From Malacoraja senta (taxonomy: Eukaryota): a DNA stretch of 64,000 nt. Of the stretch, positions 1-60,606 are shown one piece after another. A model generated the notes under the pieces. It was not told where the DNA came from. It made no database searches and was given only the letters and a program-made list of their open reading frames with translations. A program made the translations under genes and the position numbers. Within the stretch, counting starts at the first letter, position 1. Each line of letters begins with the position of its first letter. The stretch lies in the NCBI GenBank assembly GCA_038087875.1, contig CM075990.1, positions 3,598,001-3,662,000 on the forward strand, in the 5' to 3' direction.

Positions 1-580
1 CTGGAGAGAAGGAATGGGCGACGTTTCGGGTCGAGACCCTTCTTCAGACTGATGTCAGGGGAGGGGGCGGGACAGAGATAGAATGTAGGCGGAGACAGTA
101 AGACTGGTGGGTGAACTGGGAAGGGGGAGGGGATGGAGAGAGAAAGTAAGGGCTATCTGAAGTTAGAGAAGTCAATGTTCATACCGCTGGGGTGTAAACC
201 ACCCAAGCGAAATATGTGGTGCTGTTCCTCCAATTTGCGCCGGGCCTCACTCTGACGATGGAGGAGGCCCAGGACAGAAAGGTCAGATTGGGAATGGGAG
301 GGGGAGTTGAAGTGCTGAGCCACCGGGAGATCAGGTAGGTTAAGGCGGAGTGAGCGGAGGTGTTCAGCGAAACGATCGCCGAGCCTGCGCTTGGTCTCGC
401 CGATGTAGAGATGTCGACACCTGGAACAGCGGATACAGTAGATGAGGTTGGAGGAGGTGGAGGTGAACCTCTGCCTCACCTGGAAAGACTGTTTGGGTGC
501 TTTGGTGGAGTGGAGGAGGGAGGTAAAGGGACAGGTGTTGCATCTCCTGAGATTTATGGGGAAAGTACCAGAGGAGGCCA
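1..580 (-). mobile_element. Penelope-like element 3' fragment: GIY-YIG endonuclease end plus 3' region with hammerhead motif
   Basis: ORF 153-629(-) contains NLIYCIRCSRCRHLYIGETKRRLGDRFAEH...HFN...EEQHHIFRLG..P.GMN, the PLE GIY-YIG domain. Downstream on the minus strand is CTGAAGAAGGGTCTCGACCCGAAACGTC. Confidence 0.92.
20..50 (-). ncRNA. Minimal type I hammerhead ribozyme motif (PLE-associated)
   Basis: Minus strand reads agtCTGAAGA-a-GGGT-ctcg-ACCC-GAAA-CGTC: intact CUGANGA and GAAA core, stem II hairpin, very short palindromic stem III ending in GUC. Confidence 0.75.
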
Positions 581-2419
581 TCCTGAAGCCGCGGTCTCTG
601 GTAGGAAAGTGCCGATTTGGGCATTCCAAGTGTGTTCGACCGTCCCGACGTCGGAGTTTGGATCATCCCGACGAGAGGGCCTGTACATCCAGCCGTCCGT
701 AGCGATGACTACGGGACCTGACCACAGATGAACAAAGGAGGAGGGCTGACTGAATGTTGTTGCCTTCCACCACAGTGAAGAATGCTGTGGTGGATGTTTG
801 TGTTAAATTCTATTGTGTATTGTGTGTTCTTTTTTTAAGTGTATCGCTGCTGGCAAATTCATTTCACTGCACCTTCGGGTGGATGTGACCAATAACATTG
901 ACTTTCACTTTAACTTTGACTTTAATTGGATCGGTGTAAATTGTCCCTAGTGTGTGTAGGATGGTGTTAATGTGCGGGGATCGCTGGTCGGTGCAGACTC
1001 GGGGGGGCCAAAGGGCCTGTTTCCGCGCTGTATCCCTAGCCTAAACCAAACTAACGTCCAGGTATGCTTGCCAGGTGCATCTTTACTAAGACATTGGTGC
1101 AGGGGCAACAGGTAACATTCAGCTTTGCCCGGTGTCTGAAGAAGAGTCCCAACCCGAAACGTCACCTTAAAGGGTCTGAACAAGGGTTCCAAATTGAAAC
1201 ATCTCCTTTCCATGTCCTCCACAGATGCTGCATGACCGTTGAGCTACTCCAGCACTTTGTGTGTTTTTTTGTAAGCCAACATCTGCGGTTCCTTGTGTCA
1301 AAATTAATATGAGGGGAATAGAATAGGCATATGGATATTCAGGGCATGGAGGGATATGGATTATGTGCAGGTAGATATGAGATGGTCTTCGCATCATGTA
1401 CAGCACAGACATTGTGGGCCGAAGGGCCTGCTCTTGTGCTGTACTGTTCTATGTTCTATATTCTAAAAGATCCTACACCACACATTTTATTGTCCTTTTA
1501 CAGAACACACATCTTTCCCTCACCAAGGCATATTGGGCTGTAGTCCCGATCTCTCAATCTACCTCATTGAAGCCTTTGCACTTTTTTTCCCCTGCACTTT
1601 CTCTGTAGCTGTAACACTATATTCTAGTTTACAATGTTACCAAAGCCAATTAACCCAGGATATGGGTGGAAGGAAACAGGGGGGAGGGGAAAAAAGGGTG
1701 AAAAGGTGAGTTAATTTCCCTTTTAATCATTAATATATATTTTTTTGTGATTTAAATAATATCCCTTTTATCCCCCAATTTTACCCCTTCCCCCATCCCC
1801 TTCCACCTACATTCCTCCCTCTGGCTTTACATTTCACTCACCTGTATCCACCTATCGCTCACCAGGCTTTGCCCCACCCCTATCCCTATCCCTATCCCTA
1901 TCCCCCCCCCCCTACTACAATCAGTCTGAAGAAGGGCCCAGACTTAAAATGTTGCCCGTGCACTAGTTCAACGGGGCTTTATTTGCCACGTATGTAACTG
2001 CACAGTGAAATGCTTTTTGCATATATTACACATACGGGCGCCGCCATTTTTGCCGCCCAAAGTCCGGTCGGCCCGCGTGTTCGAGCAGTTCCCGCGGACC
2101 GACGTCCCTCTCCTCTCCTCGCCCGGTCTTCTTTGCATCTGCTGTTCCTTGGCACCTCCTGCAGCCGATCCTGAAGGCGCTGGAGGCATTACCACGGTTC
2201 ACCCTCCTACCAGCCCTTGCTCCTCGCGCCCCTCGTCTCCTGCCCCCTCCCGTCCATTCCCCCCACAGATGCTGCCTGACCTGTTGAGTTCCTCCAGCAC
2301 TTTGTGTTTTGTTCAAGGTGCCCCAGCATCTGCAGTTCCTCACATCTCCGCCAACCTTCACCTCTTCTCTAGTCTCTCTGGCCCACAGCTCCTCCTGGTG
2401 GCTGAGCTGAGGTCAGAAG

Positions 2420-2935
2420 ATAGTCACAAAATGCTGGCGTAACTCGGCGGGGCAGGCAGCATCTCTGGGGAGACGGAATGGGTGACGTTTCGGGTCGAGA
2501 CCCTTCTTCAGACTGAAAGTCACGGGAAAGGGAAAGGAGAGATATAGACGATGATGTAGAGAGGTATAGAACAATGAATGAAAGATATGCAAAAAAGTAA
2601 CGATGATAAAGGAAACAGGTCATTGTTAGCTGTTTGCTAGGTGAGAACGAGAAGCTGGTGTGACTTGGGTGGGGGAAGGATGGAGAGAGAATGAAAGCAG
2701 GGGTTACTTGGAGTTCAATATTCATACCACTGGGGTGTAAGCTGCCCAAGTGAAATATGAGGTGCTGTTCCTCCAATTTGCGTTTAGCCTCACTCTGACA
2801 ATGGAAGAGGCCCAGGACAGAAAGGTCAGCGTGGGAATAGGAAGGGGAATTAAAGTGTTTGGCAACCGGGGGATCAGGTAGGTCCAGGCGGACTGTGTGA
2901 AGTTATTCAGCGAAACGATCGCCAGTCTATGTTTG
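2420..2935 (-). mobile_element. Penelope-like element 3' fragment with intact hammerhead motif (2484-2514)
   Basis: ORF 2369-2776(-) starts EEQHLIFHLGSLHPSGMN (GIY-YIG C-terminus); gacgtttcgggtcgagacccttcttcagact at 2484-2514. Confidence 0.85.
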
Positions 2936-3229
2936 GCGGGACTATCAGAAAATGCTTTCACCTAGCGGAGAGAGAGAGAGAGAGAGAGAGAAAGAGTCCA
3001 ACCCAGACCTTTAGCTGTATGTTTTAGAGTCATACAGTCATACAGCATGGAACAGGCCCTTCGGCCCAATTTGCCCATGCTGACCATGCTGCCCCACCTA
3101 TACTGGAGGTAGACAAAAGCCGGAGTAACTCAGCGGGTCAGGCAGCATCTCTGGAGAAAAGGAATAGGCGACATTTCGGGTCAAGACCGTTCTTCAGACA
3201 GAGAGTCGGGGAAAGTGAAATGAGAGATA

Positions 3230-3838
3230 TAGAGTGATACAGTGTGGAAACAGGCCCTTTGCCACAACTCGCCCACACCGGTCAACACGTCCCCGGTACA
3301 GTAGTCCCACTTGCCTCCTCTTGGTCCATATCCCTCCAAACCTGCCCTATCAATGTACCGTTTAACTGTCTCTTAAATGATGGGATAGTCCCTGCCTCAA
3401 CTACCTCCTCTGGCAGTTTGTTCCATGCACCCACCACCATTTGTGTGAAAAAGTTACCCTTTGGATTCCTATTTAATCACTTCCCCTTCTCCTTGAACCT
3501 ATGTCCTCTGGTCCGTGATTGCCCTACTCTGGGCAAGAGAGAGTGTGCATCTACCCCATCTATTCCTCTCATAATTTTATACACCTCTATAAGATTTCCC
3601 CTCATCCTCCTGCGCTCCATGGAATAGAGACCCAGCCTGCTCAACCTCTCCCTATAGCTCACACCCTCTAGTCCTGGCAACATCCTCGTAAATCTTTTCT
3701 GAAGCCTTTTATGATGGACAATACCTTTCCTATAACATGGTGCCCAGAACTGAACACAATATTCCAAATGCGGTCTCACCGACGTCTTAAACAACTGTAA
3801 CATGACCTCCCAACTTCGATACTCAATACTCTGCCTGA
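3230..3838 (-). mobile_element. CR1/HER1-type LINE 3' fragment
   Basis: ORF 3477-3893(-) VRPHLEYCVQFWAP...RRRMRGNLIEVYKI...RTRGH. Its 3' end (gggcctgtttccacactgtatcactcta) resembles the SINE tail. Confidence 0.88.
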
Positions 3839-4850: not shown

Positions 4851-5020
4851 GTGTCTGAAGAAGAGTTTTGGCCCGAAACGTTGCCTATTTCCTTCGCTCC
4901 ATAGATGCTGCCTCACCTGCTGAGTTTCTCCAGCACTTTTGTCTACTCTCCTCCAAGATGCTGGTTTACAAAACTAAGACAGAGTGCTGGAGTAACTTAG
5001 CAGGTCGGAGCATCTCTGAA

Positions 5021-6913
5021 TATAATGGACGTGTGATAGCAGCTCATTTGGAAAGCAGTGACAGGATCGGTCAAAATCAACAAGGATTTACGAAGGGGAA
5101 ATCAATCTTGACTAATCTTCTGGAATTTTTTGAGGATGGAACAAGTAGAATGGATAAGGGAGAGCCAGTGGATGTGGTGTATCTGGACTTCCAAAAAACC
5201 TTTGACAAGGTCCAATGCAAGAGATTTGTGTGCAAAATGAAGCACATGTTATTGGGGGTAGGGTATTGACATGGATAGAGAACTGGTTGGCAGACAGGAA
5301 GCAAAGAGGAGAGATTAACGGGTCCTTTTCAGAATACCAGGCAGTGACTAGTGGGGTGCTGCAAGGCTCAGTGCTGGGATCCCAGTTATTTAAAATATAT
5401 ATTAACAATTTAGACAAGGGAATTAAATGTTACATCTCCAAGTTTGCGGATGACACAAAGCTGGGTGGCAGTGTGAGCTGCGAGGAGGATGCTATGAGGC
5501 TGCAGGGTGACTTGGATAGGTTGGGTGAGTGGGCAGATGCTTGGCAGATGCAGTATAATGTGGATAAATGTGAGGTTATCCACTTTGGTGACAAGAAAAG
5601 GAAGGCAGATTATTATCTGAATGGTGTCAGATTAGGAAAAGGGAAGGTGCAACGATACCTGGGTGTGCTTGTACATCAGTCACTGAAAGTAAGCATGCAG
5701 GTACAGCAGGCAGTGAAGAAAGCTAATGGCATGTTGGCCTTCATTGCGAGACGATTTGAGTTTAGGAGCAAGGAGGTCCTACTGCAGTTGTACACTTCTT
5801 CTTGCTTGTTTGAGGCAGCAGAGGTTATGTAACGGCCTCCAGGCTCTGTAGCCAGTTCAATGTGCTGTTGTCGAGGGCCGTGAGGTCTACCCATCCACCA
5901 GGGGGGCGGAGGACAACGCTGTCGACAATGACGTGCTGCTGCTGCGCTGTTTGCTGGTCGGCTCCACACACGCAGGCTGCTGATGGACGCAGCCCCCAGC
6001 GATGCATGTTGGCGTTGAACCGGCCGACCCCCGTGCGGAGCCGGTTCAGGGCGACCCACTCCTTGCGGGGCAGGTCCGAGCTGGGTGGGGCTGTGGTGTT
6101 CGGTGCAACAGTGAATTGAGGAGGTGGTGAAGTCTGTTCCCAGCTGGTTCTCCATGCTCCTAGTGTGTTGAAACCGGAGCCACAGAGGGTCGCAGCATGA
6201 CGGGAGAAGGGGCAATGAGATGACAGGCGTTGTCCACCTCCCCGTGGTGATCCCTGTCAACTGACCTCAGTCAGGGGAACGACAACAAACAGAGACAGCA
6301 ACATAAATAACAGCGAGCAGTTGTACAGGGCCCTGGTGAGACCACATCTGGAGTATTGTGTGCAGTTTTGGTCTCCTAATCTGAGGACGGACATTCTTGC
6401 TATTGAGGGAGTGCAGCGTAGGTTCACCAGGTTAATTCCCAGGATGGCGGGACTGACATATGATGAAAGAATAAGTCGACTGGGCTTGTATTCACTGGAA
6501 TTTAGAAGGATGAAAGGAGATCTTATAGAAACATATACAATTCTTAAGGGATTGGACAGGCTAGATGCAGGAAAAATGTTCCCCATGTTGCGGGAGTCCA
6601 GAACCAGGGGTCACAGTTTAAGAATAAGGGGTCGGCCATTTAGGACTGAGATGTGGAAAACCTTTTTCACCCAGAGAGTTGTGAATCTGTGGAATTCTCT
6701 GCCACAGAAGGCAGTGGAGGCAAATTCACTGAATGTTTTCAAGCGAGAGGTAGATTTAGCTCTTTGGGCTAATGGAATCAAGGGATATAGGGGGGAAAGC
6801 AGGAACGGGGTACTGATTTTGGATGATCAGCCATGATCATATTGAATGATGGGGCTGGCACGAAAGGGCGAATGGCCTACTCTTGCACCTATTTTCTATG
6901 TTCTATGTTCTAT
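5021..6913 (+). mobile_element. CR1 LINE, 5'-truncated, degenerate RT, split by an insertion at 5795-6316
   Basis: ORFs 4868-5269, 5215-5832 (GVLQGSVLG, SKFADDTK) and 6321-6836 (VRPHLEYCVQFW, RTRGH); 3' tail ttctatgttctatgttctatg. Confidence 0.93.
5795..6316 (-). mobile_element. Ingi/Vingi-like non-LTR retrotransposon 3' fragment
   Basis: 11-bp TSD gcagttgtaca (5784-5794, 6317-6327); (GAA)n tail. Minus translation QRLSSHCPF...LPRKEWVALNRLRTGVGRFNANMHRWGLRPSAACVCGADQQT..HV has the C-terminal zinc knuckle typical of the Ingi/Vingi group. Confidence 0.7.
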
Positions 6914-7160
6914 GACAGGTAAAGTTTCGGGTTGGGACCCTTCTTCAGAGTGGAAAATGTAGTCTCTCTCTGCAACGGGAAGCAGATAGATTGAGAAAGG
7001 GGCATAACAGTGGTAAATGGAGTTTAATGTGGGAAAGTGTGAGGTTTGCATCACGGCCTAATGCGGCAACTCGAATGTCCAGGAACAAAGAAGATTAAAA
7101 AGAATGGTTGAGACTGCTCGGTCCAGCAAGGGTACTGATTCCCCCCCATCAATGGGATCT

Positions 7161-7812: not shown

Positions 7813-8598
7813 CTATCTTCAAAGACCCACAACACCCTGTCGATGCTCTCATTTCACTTCTACGATCAGGAAGAAGGTACAGTAGCTTGAAAACCATGAT
7901 CACCAGGTCCAGGTCTTGCATCAGGTTCCTGTACACAACACTACCCTCGGCTTTGAAACATCGACTGGCTTTGATTGTACTTAGGACTTCGGACGTTTGT
8001 TTTGCACTAGTATTGTGGTTATCAATTTATTGAATTTTTTGTTCATTATATATTATCGACGTGTATTATGGCTCGACCTGAAACGTCATCCATTCCTTCT
8101 GTCCAGAGATGCTGCCTGTCCTGCTGAGTTACTCCAGCATTTTGTGTCTATCTACGGTTTAAACCAGCATCTGCAGTTCCTTCCTACATATTATGTTTAC
8201 GGGCCTGTTAAGCTGCTACTATTAATCCTGGTCAGATTGGAGAGGCTAGGACTATAAAATAGGGTAAAAGCTTCAGGGCTGCTGGGAGATTTGGTCAATT
8301 TGGAAGTGCTCTCAGCAGAACTGGGACAAGCTGCAGAGAGGTTCCAATTTGTCTAGAGCCTAGATCCAAGCTGCAGGAAAAGAATAAGAACATCTGCAGA
8401 CCCTGTCAATTAGGTGCAAAATGCAAAAGGTGGATGGCTGCACACCAGACATACACCTTGTAAATAATTGTAAATAATGTTGCAGAGTTCGACTTTGCCG
8501 AGTGTTGATTGGATGAGGTATTGAGCCTTGTCTGGTTTTCTTGCAGATCAGGGTAAATGTTTCTAAGTTGACTTCCATGCGAAGCCCTGTTTGAATAC

Positions 8599-8798: not shown

Positions 8799-9370
8799 CT
8801 ATTAAAGGAGTATAAAAAAGGATTTTTTAACTTTTATCAAATTATTTCATAAGTTGAATAACCTTTATTAATTGAAGTAGACACAAAGTGCTGGAGTAAC
8901 TCAGCGGGTCAGCAGCATCTCAGGAGAAAAAGGATGGGTGACGTTTCGGGTCGGAACCCCTCTTCAGATTGAAAGTAGAGGTGGAAAGAACTGGAGGTGA
9001 TGAGAAGACATTAAAATGCTGACACATGGAACTGCAGATGTTGGTTTGCAAAAAAAAAGTGCTGGGGTAACGCAGCGGGCCAGGCAGCACCTCCGAAGGA
9101 CATGAATAGGTGATGTTTCGGGTCGGGAAATAGGTCACAAATCAGGGGTGATCAAAATAAACGTCTGCACTAATCTAACCCTCAGTTTGGTTGCCATCAC
9201 ATTGATGTGAGTTGTCGTGTGATAGAATCACACAGTACAAACACAGGCCATCAGCCCATCTCATCCATGCTGACCAAGATGCCCCATTCAGCTGGTCTCA
9301 TATTGTTGTGTTTGGCTCATAACCCTCTCAACCTATCCAATCCATGTGCCTGTCCAAATGCTGTTTTATT

Positions 9371-10521: not shown

Positions 10522-13500
10522 ACAGATGTGACGGCCAGATGTGAAAACCAGATGTTAACACTGCAGAGTCTAGAATACATGCCAGGGTTTAGTTCATGAG
10601 TTCATAAGTCATATGAGCAGAAATAGGCCATTCAGCCCATCGGGTCCATTAAATCATGTGTAAGAAGGAACTGCAGATGCTGGTATAAGTCATAATTGTT
10701 CCTTCCTGCACAGAAGGTCTATCGTGCTCCATTGCTGAGGTAGGATTAGGGTTCAAGAACCTGATAGTTGTAGCACAAAAAATGACACAAAGTTCTGGAG
10801 TAAAGGGCCTGTCCCACTTGGCCGTCATTTACGCGACAGGCCGGTAGTGACTGACGCGCAACAGTCACGTGACGTTCGCGCGCGTCATCATGCGTCCGCA
10901 CAGCCGTCTGGAGTGCGTGACGTCATTTGAAGATAGGCACAAAATGCTGGAGTAACTCAGCGGGACCGGCATCATCTCTGGAGAGAAGGAATGGACGATA
11001 TTTCAGGTCGAGAATCTTCTTCAGCCTGAAGAAGGGTCCGACCCGAAACCTCCCCCATTGCTGAGTTACTCCTGCATTTTGTGTCTATCTCCAATCGTCT
11101 TGGCCTGGGAGTAGAAGCTGGGGGCCGATCCGGACCGCAACGGCCGTGAGCCCCAGGCCGAGCTCGGCGATCGCTTGCTTGTCTGCTTCTGCTGCTGTTG
11201 AAGGTGAGACGTTGCGCTGTGCCAGGGTCTTGGGCCTGTCCCACTTTGGCCGTCAGTTACGCGACAGGCCGGTGGCGCGCGAAGATTTTGTCCAGAACGA
11301 AATCCTGGAGCACAGCGCGATACTGCGCGCAACTCCACACTCCTCCACGCCACGCCATGCATCCGTCCCGCGCTACCCACACGCTACCCACACGCTACCC
11401 ACACGTTACCACATCGCGTATATGGCGCGCAAATGATGGCCAAGTGGGACAGGCCCTTAACTCAGCGTGTCAGGCAGCATCTGTGGACAACATGGGTAGG
11501 TGACGTTTCAGGTCATTCGGGACTCAAGCAGATATTCATGAGTCTGATGTTGTGGTGATTCAGGCTACAGTACCTCCTGTTCAACGGTAGCAGTGAGAAT
11601 GATAATAGATGAGAGTCAGATTAAGCTCTTAGGGCTGATGGAATCAAGGGATATGGGGAGAAAGCAGGAACTGATTTTGGATGATCAGCCATGATCATAT
11701 TGAATGGCGGTACTGGCTCGAAGGGCCGAATGGCCTACTCCTGACCTATTTTCTATATTTCTATGTTCCAATGCCGCCTTCTTGAGGCAGCTCCTCATGT
11801 CAATGCTTTCATTGGTGGGCAGTGCTGTGTCCTTGATAGATTGGGCGGAGTGCATTACTCTCTCCAGCCTCTTGTGTTCTGTGACTTGGAATTGCCACAC
11901 CAGATCACAACGCAGTCCGGGCACTTTCTACAGTGCATCTATACACATTTATTAGAGTCTTCAGTTATGTGCCAAATCTCTTTAGTTTAGTTTAGTTTAG
12001 TTTGGAGATACAGCGTTTTGGGCCGAACCCTTCTTCAGGTTTCGGCCCCGAAATGTTGCCTATTTCCTTCGCTCCATAGATGCTGCCTCACCCGCTGAGT
12101 TTCTCCAGCATTTTTGTAGGTTAATTGGCATGGTGTAAATGTAAAAATTGTCCCTACTGGGTGTGGGATGGTGTTGATGTGCGGGGATCGCTGGTCGGCG
12201 CGGACCCGGTGGGCCGAAGGGCCTGTTTCCGCGCTGTATCTCCAAACTAAACTAAACTAAAGAGATTTGGAACATAACTGAAGACTCTAATAAATGCGTA
12301 CAGATGCACTGTAGAAAGTGCCCGGACTGCGTTGTGATCTGGTGTGCCAATTCCAAGTCACGGAACACAAGAGGCTGCAGAGAGTAATGCACTCCGCCCA
12401 AATCTATCAAGGACACAGCACTGCCCACCAATGAAAGCATTGACATGAGGAGCTGCCTCAAGAAGACGGCATTGGAACATAGAAATATAGAAAATAGCTT
12501 CAGGAGTAGGCCATTCGGCCCTTCGAGCCAGTACCGCCATTCAATATGATCATGGCTGATCATCCAAAATCAGTTCCTGCTTCTCCCCATATCCCTTGAT
12601 TCCGTCAGCCCTAAGAGCTAAATCTGGACTCTCATCTATTAGCATTCTCACTGCTACCATTGAACAGGAGGTACAGTAGCCTGAATCACCACAACATCAG
12701 ACTCATGAATATCTGCTTGAGTCCCGAATGACCTGAAAACGTCACCTACCCATGTTGTCCACAGATGCTGCCTGACACGCTGAGTTAAGGGCCTGTCCCA
12801 CTTGGCCATCATTTGCGCACCATATACGTGACGTGGTAACGTGTGGGTAGCGTGTGGTAGCGTGTGGGTAGCGCGGGAAGGATGCATGGCGTGGCGTGGA
12901 GGAGTGTGGAGTTGCGCGCAGTATCGCGCTGTGCTCCAGGATTTCGTTCTGGACAAAATCTTCGCGCGCCACCGGCCTGTCGCGTAACTGACGGCCAAAG
13001 TGGGACAGGCCCAAGACCCTGGCACAGCGCAACGTCTCACCTTCAACAGCAGCAGAAGCAGACAAGCAAGCGATCGCCGAGCTCGGCCTGGGGCTCACGG
13101 CCGTTGCAGTCCAGATCGGCCCCCACTTCTACTCCCAGGCCAAGACGATTGGAGATAGACACAAAATGCAGGAGTAACTTAGCAATGGGGGAGGTTTCGG
13201 GTCGAGACCCTTCTTCAGGCTGAAGAAGATTCTCGACCCGAAATATTGTCCATTCCTTCTCCCCAGAGATGATGCCGGTCCCGCTGAGTTACTCCAGCAT
13301 TTTGTGTCTATCTTCAAATGACGTCACGCGCTCCAGACGGCTGTGCGGACGCATGATGACGCGCGCGAACGTCACGTGACTGTTGCGCGTCAGTCACTAC
13401 CGGCCTGTCGCGTAAATGACGGCCAAGTGGGACAGGCCCTTTACTCCAGAACTTTGTGTCATTTTTTGTGCTACAACTATCAGGTTCTTGAACCCTAATC

Positions 13501-13722
13501 CTACCTCAGCAATGGAGCACGATAGACCATCTGTGCAGGAAGGAACAATTATGACTTAAACCAGCATCTGCAGTTCCTTCTTACACATGATTTAATGGAC
13601 CCGATGGGCTGAACGGCCTATTTTTGCTCATATGACTTATGAACTCATGAACTAAACCCTGGCATGTATTCTAGACTCTGCAGTGTTAACATCTGGTTTT
13701 CACATCTGGCCGTCACATCTGT
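10522..13722. repeat. Large inverted duplication: arms 10522-12015 and 12232-13722, spacer ~216 bp
   Basis: acagatgtgacggccagatgtgaaaacc (10522) is the reverse complement of ggttttcacatctggccgtcacatctgt (ends 13722). Collinear throughout, including unique DNA and nested TEs. Mirrored ORF pairs (11146-11436 vs 12742-13098; 11198-11503 vs 12654-13046). Scattered substitutions and small indels separate the arms. Confidence 0.97.
10804..11457. mobile_element. PIF/Harbinger-type MITE inserted in a mini-Penelope; mirrored copy at 12788-13440
   Basis: TIR agggcctgtcccacttggcc / ggccaagtgggacaggccct. TAA TSD splits the PLE motif ctggag-taa-ctcagcg. Contains an internal PLE-derived palindrome at ~10930-11092. 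Confidence 0.88.
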
Positions 13723-13763
13723 CTACCTTCGATTTTCCAGCATCTATGCAGTTCCTTCTTAAA

Positions 13764-13950
13764 CAATTAACATACAAACCTGTACGTCTTTGGAGTGTGG
13801 GAGGAAAACCGAAGATCTCGGAGAAAACCCACGCAGGTCAAGGGGAGAACGTGCAAACTCCGCACAGACAGGACCCGTAGTCGGGATCGAGCCCGAGGCC
13901 TCCGGCTCTGCATTCGCTGTAAGGCAGCAACTCTACCGCTGCGCCAAGGT
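13764..13950 (-). mobile_element. 5' half of the V-SINE disrupted by the inverted duplication
   Basis: attaacatacaaacctgtacg...ctctaccgctgcgcc continues the SINE whose tail is at 11981-12015 and whose middle lies inverted at ~12116-12231. Confidence 0.85.
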
Positions 13951-14570: not shown

Positions 14571-16094
14571 CCTCAGCAAAACAGGAATGGCTGGTGTGTG
14601 TTAGGGAGCCCAGAACCCAGAGTCTTTGCGTCAATGAATTCTGCTCTGCTCATCCTCTCTGGGACTGGTGCCACGAGGGGAAACGAGGTGAAAAATATTT
14701 CCTACCAACCTGTTGTAAAACCCAGCTGGGAGAATGTCAGAATGTGCTCCTTACTTTCCAAAACTCCACTTTAAAGTTGGCAAAATCTTTCCCCCCCCCA
14801 CCCTCACTTAGTATTCCAATGTAGTCTTCCTCTCTCTTAATCCTCGGAGTTTGGCAACTTCAGCCTCTGGTTTTAAATTCTGATCCTGCTGCCGTTTGAA
14901 GCTTCCAGTTGCCTGACTAATGCATGGACACAACACATAACTCTGTACCGGGCAGCGTTTTGCTGCTTGCTTCATAGCTTCATAAGTTCAAAGAGCAGAA
15001 ATAGGCCTATCAGGTCTAATCTGCCATTCTCCTGACTGCCCCCCATAACCCCATAACCCCATAACCCTATAACCCCTGACACCCGCACTAATCCTAGTCT
15101 GAAGAAGGGTCTCGACCTGAAATGTCACCCATTCCTTCTCTCCAGAGATGCTGCCTGTCCCGCAGTTACTCCAACATTTTGTGCCTGTCTTCGGTTTAAA
15201 CCAGCGTCTGCAGTTCCTTCCTACACGACAATCTATCAATCTCAGCCTTAAAAATATTCCTTGACTTGGCCTCCACAGCCTCTAACTGACACTTGTAGAT
15301 TGATCGATCGACTGACTGACTGACTGATTGTGATTGATTGATTGATTGATTGATTGCTGTTGTTCCACAGTTTTATTAATAAAATTGACAAATTCAGATG
15401 ATTCGCTGCATCTGCGGTAGAGTTGCTGCCTCACAGCGCCAGAGACCCGCGTTCAATCCTGACTACGGGTGCTGTCCGCGCGGAGTTTGCATGTTCCCCC
15501 TGAGACCGAGTGGGTTCTCTCCGGGTGCTCCGGTTTCCTCCCACACTCCAAAGACGTGTAAATTGCCCCCAGTGTGCGGGTGATCGGTGGTCGACGTGGA
15601 CACGGTGGACCGATTCCACACTGTATCTGTAAAACTGAAATCAAACTCACACAATTCCCATCAGTGGATCTCACACACCCAATGGTCCCATAAGGGAGAG
15701 GCAATCCGAACACGTTCCCTACAGCTGTGCTCGCGATTCTCAATGAGAGTGGGCTTTATAGAGCTCCGCAGTCGGGGAAACAGATGATTCCAATCATTTT
15801 CTTGGCAGCTTCCAAGTCTGTGGCTTGGTTCCCTTCCAACATGCTCTAACTTGTAATATGACACAGAGCCCTCAGTCCTCGCCTGCCCCTCCCACAACAG
15901 TATCTGCAAGCTCCTCTCTGCCCCCAAACTGCCCCCCCACCATTGAAGAGGGGCACGGCAAAGTGGTCCTGAGGTTAAAAAAAAACACAGACGTGTTATT
16001 GAATGGTCATGGAGTCGGAGAGAGATACAGTCCGGAAACGGGCCCCAGGGTCCAGCAACTCCACACCAGCCATCAATGACAAAAGGATTGTGAG

Positions 16095-16811: not shown

Positions 16812-17104
16812 CTGGTATAAAATGGTCGACAAGAAAGGAGAGGTTTAGCTTAACGTTGAGCCTTTCCTGATCTAAATTCATACTAACGCACTTTAGAAAC
16901 AAGGGCTTTTTAGAGGCTTGGCAAGTAAGTGCAAGCAGAAAGATTTTAATGATCTTTTAGAGCCTTCAATTGAGAGCTAAATATTGTCTAGAACACTCAG
17001 ATATTCTCCTGGCTTTCTCCTCTAATGTTAACAAAGCTTTAGGGTCTGAGGAAGGGTCTCGACCAGAAACGCCACCTATCCCTTTTCTCCAGTGATGCTG
17101 CCGG

Positions 17105-17823
17105 TCTCCATCCAAGACCGCAAGGAATCGCAACGAATTGTGGACGCAGCCCAGACCATCGCACTATGGCGGGGTGAATCAAAGAGATCTTTATTGCTGA
17201 AGTAAAGAGAACAACACACATGCGAATGGGGGAAGGCTGACCCGGGGCTCAATACTTATACTAGGGCACACCCCTAAACCTCGTGACAACTCCTTCCCGC
17301 CATTACCCAGTCACGTGACCCTACCCCCCCCGACTGCCGAAGGTTCGCATAGTAAGTGGCCTAACCACCGGGTGGCGCCACAGCACAAATCAACCTCCCT
17401 TCTATTGACTCCATCTACACCTCACGCTGCCTCGGCAAGGCCACCAACATAATCAAGGACCAGTCTCACCCCGGCCACTCCCTTTTCTCCCCACTCCCAT
17501 CAGCCAAAACGTATAGAAGTGTGAAAACGCACACCTCCAGATTCAGAGACAGTTTCTTCCCAGCTGTTATCTGGCAAGTGAATCATCCTACCACAACCAG
17601 AGAGCAGTGCTGAACTACTATCTACCTTTTTGGTGACCCTCGGACTATCCTTGATCGGACTTTTCTGGCTTTATCTTACACTAAACGTTATTCTTTTATC
17701 ATGTATCTACACTGTAAATGGCTCAATGGTAAACATGTATTGTCTTTCCGCTGACTGAATAGCACGCAACAAAAGCTTTTTACTGTACCTCGTTACACGT
17801 GACAATAAACTAAACTGAACTGA
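17105..17823 (+). mobile_element. Rex/Babar-like LINE 3' fragment containing a solo LTR
   Basis: Translates ...IIKDQSHPGHSLFSPLPSAKTYRSVKTHTSRFRDSFFPAVI; 3' end gtgacaataaactaaactgaactga. Confidence 0.8.
17165..17382 (-). mobile_element. Solo LTR (218 bp)
   Basis: Ends t(a)tggcg...cgccaca (TG..CA with short inverted ends); 4-bp TSD gcac (17161-17164, 17383-17386); TATA-like and AATAAA on the minus strand. Confidence 0.8.
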
Positions 17824-18152
17824 CCCGTCAAGTTAATCCAGCACCTTGTGTCTTTTATTGTAAACTAGCATCCTTGGTTACTAGTTGCTTGTGTCTACTC
17901 AATGTTTCCAATTGTCAAGTTCATTTTGGGTCCCGTGTGTTCCCACAAACCAACCCAACCTACCATGTTGGACTTTGTCAAAGGCCTTGCCAATATCCAC
18001 GTGGACATCACCTACCGCACTACCTTCATCAATTTTCGTGGTCCCCTCTTCAAATTTAAAAGACTTAATGTCCAATGCACAAAACCATGCTCAGCCCCAT
18101 GTCCAATGCACAAAGACCATAATCAGCCCTTCTCTTTCCAAATGCAAGTATT

Positions 18153-20718: not shown

Positions 20719-20749
20719 AAGTAACTGCACAAGTTATTACACCATGTAA

Positions 20750-21815
20750 TAATAAAGGCCTCACCTTTGCTCCCCTCCGCCCCAACCTCCACGAGTTCCG
20801 GGTCCGCCACGACATAGAGCTCTTCTTCCGTCGCCTCCACCTCCGTGCCTTTGTCTATGGGAAGGAGTCCTCACCACCCAGTGATGACCCCTTCTTCCGT
20901 CTCCACCAGACCCCCCTCCCCTTGGACTTCCCCGGATGTTCCTTTACCTTCTTTAGACCTTTTCATTTCCAACTGCCGACAAGGGTAGATGCCGTGGTAG
21001 TCTGGCGCGCTGACCTCTACCGGACTGAGGCCACGTGACAACTCTCAGACACCTCCTCCTACTTATCAAATGACAATAGGAGTAGGCCATTCGGCCCTTC
21101 GAGCCAGCACCGCCATTCAATATGATCATGGCTGATCATCCCCAATCAGTACCCTGTTCCTGCCTTCTCCCCATATCCCCTGACTCCGCTATCTTTAAGA
21201 GCCCTATCTAGCTCTCCCTTGAAAGTATCCAGAGAATCGGCCTCCACTGCCCTCTGAGGAAGAGAATTCCACAGACTCACAACTCTGTGTGAAAAAGCGT
21301 TTCCTCATCTCATAAGCTCACCCCTTATTCTTGAACAGTGGCCCCTGGTTCTGGACTCCCCCAACATCAGGAATCCTTGGACCAAGACCCCACAGACGAG
21401 CGCCAGACCTTAATATCACACACTATTTCTAATTTCATTACTTCCGGCTCTCTGCCCTCTAAAGCCTCCAACCTTATCGTTCCCCAGCCCCGCACGGCCC
21501 GATTTTATCTTCTCCCCAAAATCCGCAAACAGAATTGTCCCGGCAGACCCATTGTTTCTGCTTCTTCATGTGCCACTGAATTAATTTCCACATACTTCCA
21601 CTCCATCCTATCCCCACTGGTCCAATCCTTCCCTACCTACGTCCAAGACACCTCACATGCTCTTCATCTCTTCAATGACCTGTTTTCCAGGCCTCCAATA
21701 CCTCATCTTTACTAAAAGAGTCTGAAGAAGGGTCTCGACCCAAAACGTCACCCATTCCTTCTCTCCAGAGATGCTGCCTGTCCCGCTGAGTTACTCCAGC
21801 ATTTTGTGTCTACAC
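20750..21815 (+). mobile_element. Penelope-like element RT remnants, interrupted by a CR1 3' fragment (~21068-21373, minus), followed by a hammerhead-bearing module
   Basis: KGLTFAPLRPNLHEFRVRHDIELFFRRLHLRAF and PRTARFYLLPKIRKQNCPGRPIVS (PLE RT); gtctgaagaagggtctcgacccaaaacgtc at ~21720. Confidence 0.85.
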
Positions 21816-22767
21816 ACCATTTAGAGTTCTGTTAGAAGAACGTTCATTCACTCTAAATATCAAACAATGATTTATGCACAGCTGTGGCACCTGTTAGTGA
21901 TTAGGACAATCCAAAAGTGAATAACTAAGAACTAAATCATTTATCAAAGCATTGATATTTCTGGAATATTTATGAATGGAGCAAGTTATTGAATAATCAT
22001 TAAGAAATGATTTAGTTCACGAGACAATTTGATGTTAAATGTCAATTGCTTCGGGTTGAGACTAGGCAGCATCTCCGCAGAACATGGATCGGGTTTTTAA
22101 ATTTGACCGAGATTTTCGAAGAGGGGACCACAAAGATTGATGAAGGTAGCGCGGTACATGTTGTCTAAGTGGACTTTAGCAAGGCCCTTGACATGATGCC
22201 ACATGGAGTCTGAAGAAGGGTCTTGACCTGAAACATCACCCATTCCTTCTCTCCAGAAACGCTGCCTGCCCCGCTGAGTTACTCCAGCATTTTGTGTCTA
22301 TCTTTGGTGTAAACCAGTACCTGCAGTTCCTTCCCACACATGATAGGTTGGGTTGTTTGGTGAGACCACCCGGGATCCAGGGTGAGTCTGACAATTGGAA
22401 ACATTAAGTAGTAACAAGGAACTGCAGATGCTAGTTTACAAAAAAAAGACACAAAGTGCTGGAGTAACTCAGTGGGTCGGGCAACATCTCTGGAGAATAC
22501 GGATGGGTGGTGTTTTAGGGTAGTGACCCTTCTTCAAAGTCGACCTGAAACGTCACCAATCCATGTCCTCCAGAGATCCTTTCTGACCCGCTGAGTTATT
22601 CCAGCACTTTGTGTCTTTTCTTGTAAACCGGCACCTGCAGTTCCTTGCATCCACTGATTCCCTACTCATCAAGCTGGCATGGATTTTCTTTTACCCTGTG
22701 CAGGTAGATAAGGTTTTGGTTATTTGAAAGTTGAAAAGATATGCCTCTTACTTTACATTGCATACAG

Positions 22768-23574: not shown

Positions 23575-24148
23575 CTGGAAGGAAATATACAAGGCCGAGT
23601 CCAAAGTGATGGTCATTCTTTCTCACCAGTGAATGAATAACGAAATGAAAAATCGTTAAAACGTTAATAATTTAGGATATAATTAGTCCTTTTAAGGTTA
23701 TGGATTCAGCCAAGAACACTGTAATTCTGCAGATGAAAGTTGTTTTACACGCAGTGCTAACCATCCTTATGGGCATTAGAGGGAGATCTCTCTAGGTGGG
23801 TCATCTGTCAATGGTTCATGTACTTGTATGTATGTTTCGTTGTTCAACCACATGAAGTCATCTCTCGCTCCGTGCCAGCACTCCCCTGTGGCTGTATGAG
23901 TGCTTGTTTTATTCTGGTGTGACCTTCTTAATGTCTGAGGGTGGATTTGACCAAGACAGGAAATCCCTCCCTGAATATCTGCTTTTCCTTGAACACAATT
24001 ACTTCATACGAGGGACATGTTTTTGTGAAGAACAGCTCAGGACCTGGCAAGAACAAATTTTTGTGTAAGGAAAGAACTACAGGTGCTGGTTTAAATCGAA
24101 GATAGACACAAAATGCTGGAGTAACTCAGCGGGACATTCTTGCCATAG

Positions 24149-24927
24149 AGGTGGCAAAAACAGGAAAGTAGACTATTATCTAAATGGTGGCCGATTAGGA
24201 AAAGGGGAGATGCAACGAGACCTGGGTGTCATGGTACACCAGTCATTGAAAGTAGGCATGCAGGTGCAGCAGGCAGTGAAGAAAGTGAATGGTATGTTAG
24301 CATTCATAGCAAAAGGATTTGAGTATAGGAGCAGGGAGGATCTACTGCAGTTGTACAGGGTCTTGGTGAGACCACACCTGGAGTATTGCGTACAGTTTTG
24401 GTCTCCAAATCTGAGGAAAGACATTTTTGCCATAGAGGGAGTACAGAGAAGGTTCACCAGACTGATTCCTGGGATGTCAGGACTTTCATATGAAGAAAGA
24501 CTCGGCTTGTACTCGCTAGAATTTAGAAGATTGAGGGGGGATCTTATAGAAACTTACGAAATTCTTAAGGGGTTTGACAGGCTAGATGCAGGAAGATTGT
24601 TCCCGATGTTGGGGAAGTCCAGAACAAGGGGTCACAGTTCAAGGATAAGGGGGAAGTCTTTTAGGATCGAGATGAGAAAAACATTTTTCACACAGAGAGT
24701 GGTGAATCTCTGGAATTCTCTGCCACAGAAGGTAGTTGAGGCCAGTTCATTGGCTATATTTAAGAGGGAGTTAGATGTGGCCCTTGTGGCTAAAGGGATC
24801 AGGGGGTATGGAGAGAAGGCAGGTACAGGATACTGAGTTGGATGATCAGCCATGATCATATTGAATGGCGGTGCAGGCTCGAAGGGCCAAATGGCCTACT
24901 CCTGCACCTATTTTCTTTGTTTCTATG
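24149..24927 (+). mobile_element. CR1 LINE 3' fragment
   Basis: ORF 24210-24836 QRDLGVMVH...VRPHLEYCVQFWSP...RTRGH...GYGEKAG; CR1 3' UTR. Confidence 0.93.
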
Positions 24928-25090
24928 GGACAGGCAGCATCTCTGGAGAAAAGGAATGGGTGACATTTCAGGTCGAGACTCAAGAAGGGTCTCGACCCGA
25001 AATGTCACCCATTCCTTCTCTCCAGCAGTTTGTGTCTAAGAACAAATTGTTGTTCTTTATTTTCACTCAAACTTTCTAAAACACTTCTAG

Positions 25091-25902
25091 GTAGACAAAA
25101 ATGCTGGAGAAACTCAGCGGGTGAGGCAGCATCCATGGAGCGAAGGAAATAGGCAACGTTGCGGGTCGAAACCTGAAGAAGGGTTTCGACCCGAAACGTT
25201 GCCTATTTCCTTCGCTCCATAGATGCTGCCTCACCCGCTGAGTTTCTTCTTTTTTTTTAAAATATTTTATTTTATTAGAAGTGAGTACAGTCATATGGTA
25301 CCAAAGTGCCTAATATATATTTGCATAATACATTTTATGTACATCTTCTTCTTATTATTATTTTTTTATTATAATAAAGAAATATAAGAAAAAGAAATTA
25401 GATAATAAAGAATAGAAAAACGTGAGATATATAGTGTGTGAAAAAGGAAAAAAAAGAGAATGAAAGAAGAAAGTTGAAGAAAAGAAAGTAGGAAAAAGAG
25501 AATAAAAAATACAAATAAAAAGAAATAAGGAGATCATTATTTATAATCTTGACCATCCCCCACCCAGTCCTCAAACAATTAGTTTCTACAATTATGTTGC
25601 ACCATATGATTCCAAAAAGACGACAATGGAGACCAACTCGTTAAGAATTGGTCTGATTTTTCTATTAGGAGGAATCACATTTCTTAAAGATGTACGGTAT
25701 CCAACATGCTTGCGATCCACATTTTATGCGTTGGTATTGGTGTATTTTTCCAAAATTTAAGTATTAGTTTTGTTGCTATTATTAAACCATAATTAAAAAA
25801 TAAATGTTGTGATAAGTTCAATTTATTCCCATCTTCCATTATTTCCCGCTGAGTTTCTCCAGCATTGTTGTCTACCTTTGATTTTCCAGCATCTGCAGTT
25901 CC
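25091..25902. mobile_element. Palindromic mini-Penelope insertion, later split by an L1 fragment
   Basis: 17-bp TSD ttctaaaacacttctag (25074-25090, 25903-25919); inverted arms around the hammerhead ctgaagaagggtttcgacccgaaacgtt (25173-25200). Confidence 0.85.
25248..25844 (-). mobile_element. L1-type LINE 3' fragment
   Basis: 14-bp TSD cccgctgagtttct (25234-25247, 25845-25858); poly(A) tail seen as a T-run; homologous to the ORF2 C-terminus at 27023-27235. Confidence 0.8.
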
Positions 25903-26651
25903 TTCTAAAACACTTCTAGTTTCGTTTCTCGGTTAGTTTAGAGATGCAGCGCTGAAACAGGCCCTTCGGCCCACCGAGTCTGCACCGACCAGTGATCCCC
26001 GCACACTAGCGCTATCCTACACACATTAGGGGCAATATAACATATTATACCAAGCCAATGGGAGGAAACCAGAGATCTCAGTGTAAACCCATGCTGTAAG
26101 GTTGTCCCAAGCACAGGGCCACGAATCCTTGAGTATTTGGGTACAAAATATCAAATATGTACAGTTCAATGGTTCGTCGTTGCTTTATTGCCACTTGTGC
26201 CAAGTGAAAACGCTCTGTGAAATTATTTTCTTACAAACAGTCCAGTAGATTATTGTCATATCATCCTCGATTAGCAAATTGTACAGAAATAGTCCACTGA
26301 GCCCGCCTGCGAGAGGCCCCATGTATTGGCGCCAATTTCCAAGTCCAGTCCATGTTCCAGTTGCTATGAGCGGTGCTCGATCTAGGCGAGCCCCAGGCTG
26401 CTGCAGGGCCTCCAGCTGTCACCTTCCTTGGTCCCTCAGTAACCAACGTCCTCACCTTTGTGCCCTGCTTCTTGCAAGTGATTAGAAAAGGTGGTAATAG
26501 AAAATAGAACATAGAAATATAGCGACATGGAAAATAGGTGCAGGAGTAGGCCATTCGGCCTTTCGTGCCAGCGCCACCATTCAATATGATCATGGCTAAT
26601 CAACCAAAATCAGTACCCCGTTCCTGCTTTCTCCCCATATCCCTTGATTCT

Positions 26652-40355: not shown

Positions 40356-40771
40356 ACCGTTTTTTAAAGTTTAGTTTAGTTTAAAGATACAGCGCGGAAA
40401 CAGGCCTCTCGGCCCACCGATTCTGCACTGACCAGCGATCACCCATATGCTAGCACTATTTTACTCCGGAGTCACGTGAGTGACTACATGAAGAACCCGT
40501 CCAGCACGCATCCGCGACATTAGCGTTCATGCAGTGCAACAGCGACGAACGGGAGTACAGGCGCTCCCGCTACAAGTTTAAAAAGCGGACCATCAGGTAA
40601 GTACTTACTCTGAGGTCATAATTAGGAAGCTTTGCTCTGCTTTGTGAATTCCAGGTGAAACTGGAAAAATGAGCAAAGCACGGCAAGGGAAAAAGACCGC
40701 CCCCCCGTTCGACTCTAACAGAACGGGAGTGTCCCATCAGTGGGGGGCGAGAGGCGGCACCTGGACCGCAC

Positions 40772-60569: not shown

Positions 60570-60606
60570 ATCACACATGGACACACACACACACACAAAC
60601 ACGCGT

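What the first reader, a model, noticed from the sequence alone, without database searches (positions are those of the whole stretch)
20..50. Hammerhead ribozyme motif in the Penelope repeat, dispersed through the window in many copies
Seen: CTGAAGA-stem II-GAAAC-GTC is intact at 20-50(-) and 2484-2514(-). A second subfamily ends GAAACGTT (25173-25200 +). Decayed copies lie at ~1135, 1923, 3170, 4855, 8940, 15098, 17045, 21720, 22208, 40223, 46718, 50550, 57676, 62882 and 63880. Established: Penelope-like elements carry minimal type I hammerheads with palindromic stem III, thought to cleave as dimers. Inference: most copies here have no ORF and look like a ~100-150-nt non-autonomous, ribozyme-bearing module mobilised in trans.
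Basis: partly seen in the sequence, partly recalled or inferred. Interest (0 to 1): 0.7.

Follow-up and report, generated by a model that had tools for sequence, protein, structure and literature searches.

The report
Penelope-type hammerhead end-stubs in cartilaginous fish
The repeated motif is a real minimal hammerhead-ribozyme sequence from the end repeat of a Penelope-like jumping gene, an already described pairing; the one less ordinary point is that most short copies begin at the same few bases just before the ribozyme, as if copied up to the start of the element's RNA.

Summary
All 18 named copies are real (46 profile hits; 7 exact cores, 0 in 100 shuffles). The motif is the minimal type I hammerhead in the pseudo-LTR of a Neptune-type Penelope-like element in shark/ray DNA, about 105 nt behind a GIY-YIG gene: a described kind, also noted by this scan on another genome (e1-7788996). 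Stems covary across invertebrate relatives but not among the window's copies, which decay neutrally; stem I has only 2 bp; cleavage is untested. The short copies are not random stubs: 17 of 31 independent 5' ends fall within 5 nt just upstream of the core, 3' ends sit at two sites about 36 nt apart (the known tail), and none clearly starts at the cleavage site. Solo, long and head-to-head forms mix within at least three subfamilies, so they look like run-off products of uncleaved RNA that starts at an initiator-like TCAGT, not a separate SINE or retrozyme. A 3.2-kb palindrome folded back at that edge carries 1.6 kb of ORF-less DNA and one tail: the best sign of mobilisation in trans. The RNA start is inferred, not shown.

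The parts
20..47 (-). Minimal type I hammerhead core, copy A: CUGAAGA, extra A, 4-bp stem II with tetraloop, GAAA, palindromic CG, GUC; predicted cut between 20 and 19; 2-bp stem I (48-49 with 18-19)
   Evidence: numbering from established hammerhead consensus
1..50 (-). Module of copy A from +1 (A of AGTCTGAAG, position 50), cut off by the window edge
51..152 (-). Pyrimidine-rich 3' UTR / upstream pseudo-LTR ending in the initiator-like TC|AGT
   Evidence: sequence; promoter role inferred
153..722 (-). C-terminal part of the Penelope-like ORF: Cys linker (first Cys mutated here) and GIY-YIG endonuclease
   Evidence: (PF01541, E 3e-4, below cut-off)
1134..1301 (+). Head-to-tail pair: stub +2..+34, then a module +2..tail (subfamily III)
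1923..2344 (+). Long copy (upstream retained) +1..+37, probably continued at 2249 (+33..tail) after a 0.3-kb insertion
   Evidence: collinear only
2417..2514 (-). Module of copy B, +1..+98, intact core at 2484-2511, no tail
2515..2923 (-). 3' UTR and GIY-YIG end upstream of copy B
3107..3236 (-). Copy with about 36 nt of upstream sequence, decayed core
4853..4946 (+). Solo module, subfamily II (GUU), +2..+94, 10-bp target duplication, 3 extra nt (GGT) at the 5' junction
4956..6949 (-). Solo module starting +3 at 6949, probably continued at 5029 after a 1.9-kb insertion
   Evidence: collinear only
8072..8189 (+). Solo module starting in the stem II loop (+16), with tail, 7-bp target duplication plus one G
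8875..9128 (-). Two tandem copies: +15..tail (9128-9020) and a copy with about 35 nt upstream (9005-8875)
10522..13766 (.). 3.2-kb palindrome (arms 98% identical) centred on a subfamily II head-to-head module (12013-12116); right arm = module +13..+90, 1.6 kb of ORF-less repeat DNA, tail (13720-13766); left arm stops where the tail begins
13153..13314 (.). Head-to-head pair folded back at +4 with one spacer base (duplicated at 10930-11090 by the palindrome)
15096..15226 (+). Solo module +1..+133 with tail
17044..17877 (+). Solo module from +2, probably continued at 17820 after a 0.7-kb insertion
   Evidence: collinear only
20751..21718 (+). N-terminal half of the Penelope-like ORF (interrupted, ending near RT motif A) joined through 4 extra nt to a module at +1
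21719..21812 (+). Module +1..+94, no tail
22207..22339 (+). Solo module +1..+133 with tail, 6-bp target duplication plus one G
22410..22652 (.). Head-to-head pair (subfamily III), arms starting at +5 and +17, both with tail
24062..25025 (.). Head-to-head pair (subfamily I), junction +3/+14; minus arm split by a 0.8-kb insertion
25089..25912 (.). Head-to-head pair (subfamily II), junction +4/+13 at 25173; plus arm split by a 0.6-kb insertion with a 14-bp duplication, tail at 25870-25912
38396..38474 (-). Solo module from about +19 to +98, 12-bp target duplication
40004..40356 (+). Copy with 220 nt upstream, mutated core, full tail
46585..46842 (.). Divergent pair: minus copy from +2 (46654) and plus copy from +2 (46717) with tail
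50481..50590 (-). Subfamily II copy with about 12 nt upstream, in a (TTTAG)n tract
57611..57703 (-). Solo module +4..+96
58738..58923 (.). Head-to-head pair centred on the GTTTCG/CGAAAC hairpin (+14), tail on one arm only, 19-bp target duplication
62777..62910 (-). Solo module +3..+135 with tail
63758..63941 (-). Copy with about 30 nt upstream, internal 26-nt duplication, tail

Best explanation
The motif is the minimal type I hammerhead of the pseudo-LTR of an endonuclease-bearing, Neptune-type Penelope-like retrotransposon (identity of the motif about 0.95). The short copies are run-off products. RNA made from the pseudo-LTR promoter starts at or next to the A of TCAGT, 3 nt before the catalytic core (inferred). 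The element's RT, supplied in cis or trans, starts internally about 97 or 134 nt downstream (by analogy with Frangieh 2024), copies the uncleaved ribozyme, and runs off the RNA 5' end. The short cDNA is then joined to the target (solo copy with a target duplication), folds back on itself (head-to-head pair, tail on one arm), or jumps to another RNA (tandems, ORF chimera). Any locus that still yields such an RNA, ORF-less ones included, can be copied, as the 3.2-kb palindrome suggests; after insertion the copies decay neutrally. The ribozyme, if active, works only in master RNAs as a dimer or with protein help, and cutting is not needed to make the copies. Shown: anatomy, end distributions, duplications, family mixing. 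Inferred: RNA start, RT start sites, fold-back, activity.
For: 5' ends: 17 of 31 independent events at +1..+5, expected about 1 under uniform truncation (17 of 36 before merging split copies). Across four runs of related fish, loose ends pile at +2 and +1 with unrelated flanks (agreement 0.31-0.35; six such rows among the 24 shown of 3102). 3' ends: 10 of 36 at +94..98 and 16 of 36 at +124..140, matching the 30-40-nt tail and the two RT starts of PMC11167929. Target duplications of 6 bp or more in 5 of 16 single units against 6% of 240 mismatched pairs. Solo, long and head-to-head forms interleave. Core not more conserved than flanks in 9 subfamily I copies (4/90 vs 12/261 non-CpG changes). 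The 3.2-kb palindrome folds back at +4 and has the tail on one arm only. The pseudo-LTR of Drosophila Penelope can drive transcription of downstream DNA (PMC2377424, Discussion). Same architecture behind the GIY-YIG end in 12 of 42 related loci, 4 of 139 control windows, with compensatory changes.
Against: No RNA start or end peak in the one raw RNA run (poly(A), another species label, about 6% read). The cap-G signature is weak: G at -1 in 5 of 12 solos, p=0.13; plurality G in 4 of 6 loose-end rows. TCAGT is not seen before the core in the invertebrate relatives, and in D. virilis the start lies about 120 nt upstream of the ribozyme with an intron between (PMC2377424, PMC4209133). RT start data come from a Poseidon element, this one is Neptune-type by motif only. 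The tree has 2 well-supported branches of 23. Six further 5' ends lie at +14..+19 (five) or +84, and two subfamily II pairs share one junction (12038, 25173), which could mean a palindromic master that replicates as a unit. No full-length element was seen.
Confidence: 0.5

Rival explanations
1. Same element and same by-product status, but the fixed 5' edge is set at the DNA or protein level, not by the RNA start: the endonuclease nicks the new cDNA or pseudo-LTR at this site, or protein bound to the folded hammerhead stops RT or licenses second-strand priming there.
For: The edge coincides with the 5' strand of stem I; an earlier unchecked note reports stubs beginning at the hammerhead in three families of another genome (e1-7788996). 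Anolis protein binds this RNA region, activates its ribozyme and cuts pseudo-LTR DNA (PMC11167929). No RNA start peak.
Against: Extra G at both junctions near +1 that have a resolved duplication of 6 bp or more (4853, 22207) and an initiator-like sequence exactly at +1 in this family; 8 of 31 events read through the edge for 12 to over 600 nt.
Confidence: 0.25
2. An independent non-autonomous, SINE-like family with its own master copies and an internal promoter (initiator at +1, ACGT at +27..30 acting as a downstream element), mobilised in trans: the strong form of the first reader's reading.
For: Defined ends, target duplications, module depth about 18 times that just upstream and 8 times the GIY-YIG peak in raw reads; the ORF-less 3.2-kb unit; a repeated head-to-head junction; D. 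virilis Penelope has a downstream element with an ACGT core (PMC2377424, passage).
Against: Solos do not cluster in the tree, share the module sequence with long copies of each subfamily, and lose the TC before +1 and often +1 to +3; no selection on copies.
Confidence: 0.15
3. The edge is a 3' splice site (pyrimidine tract, CAG|T) and solos come from spliced RNA, as the D. virilis intron ends at helix I.
For: Pyrimidine-rich sequence and CAG lie just upstream in most long copies; precedent in PMC4209133.
Against: Solos share no upstream exon; loose ends at +1/+2 have agreement 0.31-0.35; no skipping joint into +3 among the 15 joints shown of 1121.
Confidence: 0.05
4. A retrozyme: tandem repeats cut by the ribozyme into monomers that circularise and are re-inserted.
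For: Head-to-tail joints exist in related genomes (8-11 contigs per joint and run) and two joints in the table of inserted letters lie at the cleavage site; Li et al. 2026 report retrozymes in one chondrichthyan.
Against: No tandem array of the module in the window; no clear 5' end at +32 among 31 events; copies span the cleavage site intact; stem I is 2 bp, not about 6.
Confidence: 0.03
5. Ordinary random 5' truncation of long copies.
For: 8 of 31 events extend upstream by varied lengths; 5' truncation is the rule for these elements (PMC8557442).
Against: 17 of 27 ends in a 5-nt window of a 125-nt range, P about 1e-15 after correcting for window choice.
Confidence: 0.02

Closest known systems
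Minimal hammerheads (min-HHR) in pseudo-LTRs of metazoan Penelope-like elements (Cervera and de la Pena 2014, PMC4209133; Lunse et al. 2017, not held, recalled)
   Same: Core, extra base between 9 and 10.1, G10.1-C11.1, palindromic 15.2-16.2, place behind the GIY-YIG gene, mostly single dispersed copies, pairs on opposite strands.
   Different: Helix I is 2 bp (as in the D. virilis variant) instead of 4-5; helix II is 4 bp; one subfamily has GUU; cartilaginous fish are not named in the text I read; the paper calls single motifs 'probably related to truncated PLEs' without mapping their ends.
Poseidon element of Anolis carolinensis (Frangieh et al. 2024, PMC11167929)
   Same: Two 3' end points 30-40 nt apart about 100-135 nt past the start of the ribozyme; uncleaved RNA as template; no reads ending at the cleavage site.
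   Different: Different clade; there the ORF starts in stem II, here no ORF start was located; the paper does not describe a fixed 5' edge or short run-off copies in the text I read.
Pseudo-LTR structures of Adineta vaga Penelope elements (Arkhipova et al. 2013, PMC3846280)
   Same: Solo pseudo-LTRs, head-to-head palindromes ascribed to self-priming, tail on one end, host DNA carried in trans between pseudo-LTRs, initiator-like sequence in the repeat.
   Different: There solos are few and ascribed to recombination or deletion; here they are about 1 per 2 kb, several have target duplications, and the fold-back point is the ribozyme's 5' edge.
Non-LTR retrozymes (Cervera and de la Pena 2020, PMC7229834; Li et al. 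2026, 10.64898/2026.07.22.740005)
   Same: Non-coding, type I hammerhead, derived from or related to Penelope-like pseudo-LTRs.
   Different: Retrozymes are tandem arrays cut into monomers that circularise; these copies are dispersed, carry the minimal motif and are not bounded by the cleavage site.

Membership tests
Minimal type I hammerhead of Penelope-like elements | Core CUGANGA ... GAAA ... UH | tested here: met
   7 exact matches, 0 in 100 shuffles
Minimal type I hammerhead of Penelope-like elements | Extra base between 9 and 10.1; G10.1-C11.1; palindromic 15.2-16.2 | tested here: met
   A, G-C and CG in copies 20 and 2484; G10.1-C11.1 in 13 of 13 rows of A4
Minimal type I hammerhead of Penelope-like elements | Helix II hairpin | tested here: met
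   4 bp plus tetraloop; 84% of cells paired over the whole structure against at most 49% when slid
Minimal type I hammerhead of Penelope-like elements | Helix I (4-5 bp typical, 2 bp in the D. virilis variant) | tested here: inconclusive
   2 bp only in window copies; 3 bp or more in 17 of 24 core matches in relatives
Minimal type I hammerhead of Penelope-like elements | Covariation in stems | tested here: inconclusive
   None above shuffles among 21 window copies; 0 of 500 shuffles reach the score for 3 window copies plus 10 relatives picked by me from 24 matches
Minimal type I hammerhead of Penelope-like elements | Located in the pseudo-LTR behind the GIY-YIG ORF | tested here: met
   About 105 nt after the stop in copy A; 12 of 42 related loci, 4 of 139 control windows
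Minimal type I hammerhead of Penelope-like elements | Self-cleavage as a dimer or with protein | not testable with these tools
   No RNA end peak in one poly(A) run; active fold is about 3 kcal/mol above the minimum for the monomer
Rfam hammerhead families | Covariance-model match | tested here: not met
   No hit at gathering score in the window or at E<=10 in 1-5100
Endonuclease-bearing Penelope-like element, Neptune/Nematis type | RT plus C-terminal GIY-YIG | tested here: met
   GIY-YIG ends at 153-722 and 2681-2923; N-terminal RT piece at 20751-21718; never on one intact ORF in the window
Endonuclease-bearing Penelope-like element, Neptune/Nematis type | CX2-5CxxC linker before the endonuclease (PMC8557442) | tested here: met
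   Present in 11 of 11 homologues checked; first Cys mutated in the window copy
Endonuclease-bearing Penelope-like element, Neptune/Nematis type | Placement in an RT tree with named clade members | not tested
   No reference set at hand
Endonuclease-bearing Penelope-like element, Neptune/Nematis type | Optional 30-40-nt tail, inverted pseudo-LTRs, target duplications | tested here: met
Non-LTR retrozyme | Tandem array of ribozyme-bearing units | tested here: not met
   No such array among 39 tandem-repeat rows; only isolated pairs
Non-LTR retrozyme | Units bounded by the cleavage site; circular RNA | tested here: not met
   No clear 5' end at +32 in 31 events; circular RNA itself could not be tested
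Independent SINE-like family | Own lineage apart from the autonomous partner | tested here: inconclusive
   Solo label not clustered (236 of 500 shuffles as low), but the 26-row tree is weakly resolved
Independent SINE-like family | Internal promoter retained in copies | not testable with these tools
   No Rfam match to a tRNA, 5S or 7SL head; solos lack the bases before +1

The most novel reading that the evidence does not exclude
Penelope-like elements make a 'strong-stop'-like product as their main output: transcription starts at the 5' edge of the hammerhead, RT starts 97 or 134 nt downstream, and the run-off cDNA is inserted alone, folded back or template-jumped. The 134-nt module would then be the whole cis-acting unit, enough to move kilobases of host DNA in trans (3.2-kb palindrome), and one geometry would explain solo pseudo-LTRs, head-to-head inversions, the one-sided tail and most dispersed minimal hammerheads in animal genomes.
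Probability: 0.4. Interest if true: 0.55.

Novelty: new member of a known kind. Interest (0 to 1): 0.33.

Why it matters
The ribozyme-element pairing is known, so the motif alone is ordinary. How Penelope-like elements form their pseudo-LTRs, inversions and tails, and what their hammerhead does, are open questions (PMC11167929, PMC8557442). A family with tens of copies per 64 kb, sharp ends and resolved junctions is a good natural record: a genome-wide end map plus one CAGE or RACE experiment would test whether the ribozyme edge is the RNA start and whether cutting plays any part. It also warns that large counts of 'genomic hammerheads' in such genomes are mostly dead by-products.

Tried and rejected
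Own genome: none is held, so all end counts are from the window plus one read lay. Rfam: no hammerhead match. DNA motif scans of metagenome and viral contigs: 0 matches each. Run search: no RNA holder listed; one raw RNA run came in by study. RNA lay: no place where many molecules begin or end; a poly(A), fragmented library from another species label cannot show a 100-135-nt RNA or a start, so this is inconclusive. Folding: none of 10 copies folds better than shuffles (z -0.94 to +0.98), and predicted minima pair the core with other parts of the module; the consensus fold of 14 copies has 4 pairs and no compensatory change. Bacterial promoter scan is not applicable and found nothing. A second hammerhead cut at NUC just before +1 was considered and rejected by inspection: no matching stem I or III arm. 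A possible inhibitory pairing of upstream UGAC/CGAC with the cleavage site is concordant in 4 of 5 long copies but is equally explained by CpG decay; not used. My first count of 5' ends (17 of 36) treated five split copies as separate; two have junction duplications, three are collinear only, so the count lies between 17 of 31 and 17 of 34. No target duplication was found at the outer ends of the 3.2-kb palindrome. Lunse et al. 2017 is not held. Searches for a printed account of this family or of a fixed 5' edge listed none, judged from titles and abstract starts; Repbase and Dfam could not be searched and probably hold these repeats.

Full report
Setting. The window is animal DNA rich in retroelements. 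The GIY-YIG ORF at 153-662(-) is closest to uncharacterised proteins of whale shark, devil ray and stingray (59-64% identity), so the host is very likely a shark, ray or skate. No genome is held for it.

Observation. The pattern CTGANGA-N12-14-GAAACGTH occurs 7 times, against 0 in each of 100 shuffles, including 20-47(-), 2484-2511(-) and 25173-25200(+). All 15 listed decayed copies are present. A profile built from 13 copies finds 46 hits, about 6.6% of the window. Below, +1 is the A of AGTCTGAAG; the core starts at +4 and the predicted cut lies after +31.

The ribozyme motif. Read as RNA it has the core CUGAAGA, one extra A, a 4-bp stem II closed by G10.1-C11.1 with a variable tetraloop, GAAA, a self-complementary CG in place of stem III, and GUC (GUU in subfamily II). 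These are the marks that Cervera and de la Pena list for minimal hammerheads of animal Penelope-like elements (PMC4209133; parts 1-2 of 4 read, figures and supplements not seen). Stem I is only 2 bp here, like their D. virilis variant. Only the copies at 20 and 2484 keep all parts. Rfam has no match. Among 21 window copies, 84% of cells pair, against at most 49% when the partners are slid, but covariation equals the shuffles; in 9 subfamily I copies the core changes as often as its surroundings (4 of 90 against 12 of 261 non-CpG cells). So the copies decay neutrally. In 80 loci encoding related proteins the same core lies within 350 nt behind the endonuclease end in 12 of 42 loci with room, against 4 of 139 control windows. 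Of 24 core-only matches in these loci, 19 have a stem II and 17 a stem I of 3 bp or more. An alignment of 3 window copies with 10 of these 24, which I chose as distinct and mostly stem-bearing, shows two-sided changes in 8 of 10 pairs, and no shuffle of 500 reaches its covariation score; the choice of rows inflates this. The fold is therefore real at family level; whether the fish version still cuts is open. Folding predicts that the core pairs with other parts of the module instead, in line with the Anolis ribozyme, which cuts only with protein (PMC11167929; parts 1-2 of 4 read).

The element. Copy A lies about 105 nt behind the stop of a GIY-YIG ORF; copy B follows another endonuclease end; an N-terminal RT piece lies at 20751-21718. 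All 11 homologues checked have the CX2-5CxxC linker, which marks the Neptune and Nematis clades (PMC8557442, passages). The clade call rests on that motif; no tree with named members was made.

The short copies have sharp ends. 3' ends fall at +94..98 (10 of 36) and +124..140 (16 of 36). This is the optional 30-40-nt tail, which Frangieh et al. tie to two internal RT start sites. 5' ends: of 31 independent events, 17 lie at +1..+5, 8 extend upstream by 12 to over 600 nt, and 6 lie further in. I counted the palindrome-duplicated copies once, left out partner arms of head-to-head pairs and merged five split copies (two with junction duplications, three collinear only); unmerged, the count is 17 of 36. 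Uniform truncation would give about 1. None clearly starts at +32, the cleavage product. Reads and contigs of four runs from related fish, laid on 2230-2960, show the same edge: loose ends at +2 and +1 with unrelated flanks (agreement 0.31-0.35, six rows among the 24 shown of 3102), depth in raw reads about 18 times higher on the module than just upstream and 8 times the GIY-YIG peak, and the tail as the loose end beyond +98. Part of the drop is due to other subfamilies with a different upstream sequence (rows at 2516). Target duplications of 6 bp or more flank 5 of 16 single units, against 6% of mismatched pairs (one of the five lies in a microsatellite), and one head-to-head pair has 19 bp. 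These are insertions, not deletion remnants.

Not a separate lineage, as far as the window shows. A tree of 26 copies gives three to four subfamilies; long, solo and head-to-head forms are mixed (solo label 8 changes, shuffled mean 8.5), though only 2 of 23 branches are well supported.

Junctions. In five head-to-head units one arm starts at +3..+5 and the other at +4 or +13..+17; a sixth is centred on the hairpin GTTTCG/CGAAAC. This fits a cDNA that ends at the edge and primes on itself, as proposed for rotifer elements (PMC3846280, passages). At 21719 a module is joined at +1 to the N-terminal ORF half through 4 extra bases, as after a template jump. The clearest case is 10522-13766: arms 98% identical, centred on a subfamily II pair joined at +4/+13; the right arm is module +13..+90, 1.6 kb of repeat DNA with no Penelope-like ORF match, then the subfamily II tail; the left arm stops exactly where the tail starts. 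The simplest reading is one event: an ORF-less RNA beginning at the module's 5' edge was copied from the tail end, folded back, and resolved with the tail on one side. This supports mobilisation in trans. No target duplication was found, and a DNA-level duplication or assembly effect is not excluded, though 2% divergence and the exact stop argue against it.

Mechanism. I think it most likely (0.5) that the edge is the RNA 5' end. Long copies have a pyrimidine-rich run ending in TCAGT, which matches the polymerase II initiator consensus with A as +1 (recalled). The Drosophila pseudo-LTR can drive transcription of downstream DNA (PMC2377424; passages and Discussion). Capped templates leave an untemplated G (PMC4859970, passages); here G follows the duplication at 4853, 8072 and 22207, but G at -1 overall is 5 of 12 (p=0.13), and G is the plurality letter in 4 of 6 loose-end rows: suggestive only. 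The raw RNA run shows no start or end peak, which a poly(A) library cannot be expected to show. The main rival (0.25) is an edge set by the endonuclease or by protein bound to the ribozyme. A self-propagating SINE-like family (0.15), a splice acceptor (0.05), a retrozyme (0.03) and random truncation (0.02) fit less well.

Comparison and novelty. It works like the pseudo-LTR-plus-tail unit of known Penelope-like elements and is a member of their minimal hammerheads on every sequence feature tested except the short stem I. It is not a retrozyme as defined in PMC7229834 (passages) or Li et al. 2026 (10.64898/2026.07.22.740005; parts 1-3 of 5, supplements closed; one chondrichthyan is in their set, and its supplement may list this family). 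Dispersed single motifs, opposite-strand pairs, tails and host-DNA capture are all in print. I found no printed map of a fixed 5' edge at the ribozyme (searches, judged from listings; subscription papers, Lunse et al. 2017 and repeat databases were not available). This scan has noted hammerhead-initial, often palindromic stubs on another genome (e1-7788996, unchecked). Verdict: new member of a known kind, interest 0.33; the run-off model would deserve about 0.55 if confirmed.

Noticed in passing
window 10522-13766: 3.2-kb palindrome with 98% identical arms, centred on a head-to-head module and ending in a tail on one side; the only adjacent long inverted repeat in the window.
   Followed up: yes
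window 20751-21718 (+): N-terminal half of a Penelope-like ORF, interrupted by about 0.3 kb of another repeat, fused to a module at +1.
   Followed up: partly
window 12038 and 25173: Two independent subfamily II head-to-head pairs share the same +4/+13 junction; either a preferred fold-back or a palindromic master copied as a unit.
   Followed up: partly
runs X1, X6, X15 laid on window 2230-2960: Recurrent joints: a 38-nt tandem of the core with one extra base at the junction (10, 7 and 1 contigs), head-to-tail modules, a fold-back from +1 to +47, and single entries joined at the predicted cleavage site.
   Followed up: no
window 34413-36497 (-): 693-aa open stretch with an RVT_1 domain, apparently a young LINE (CR1-like by recall); many decayed relatives across the window.
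   Followed up: no
window 40673-44657 (+) and 52326-54476 (-): DIRS-like pieces by recall: gag-like ORF, RT, tyrosine-recombinase-associated SAM-like domain, with an internal duplication (41779-42276, 44049-44657).
   Followed up: no
window 28287-30420 (-): LTR-retrotransposon pol fragments with integrase domains.
   Followed up: no
window 20020-20280 and 20440-20720 (+): Copies of an abundant short repeat ending in (CTAAA)n, resembling the shark and ray HE1 SINE (name recalled, not tested).
   Followed up: no
window 1640-1960: Purine-rich then pyrimidine-rich run upstream of the copy at 1923, like a decayed inverted upstream repeat; gave only sub-threshold miRNA-type Rfam hits and no 25-nt inverted repeat.
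   Followed up: partly
L005:269 and L005:3421: Full-length-like relative with the hammerhead at both ends, 3152 nt apart, an AUAU palindrome in stem III and a 936-codon open stretch starting about 60 nt after the first core.
   Followed up: partly
window 60581-61853: 1.27-kb AC-rich microsatellite that produces the long His/Thr and Val/Cys pseudo-ORFs.
   Followed up: no
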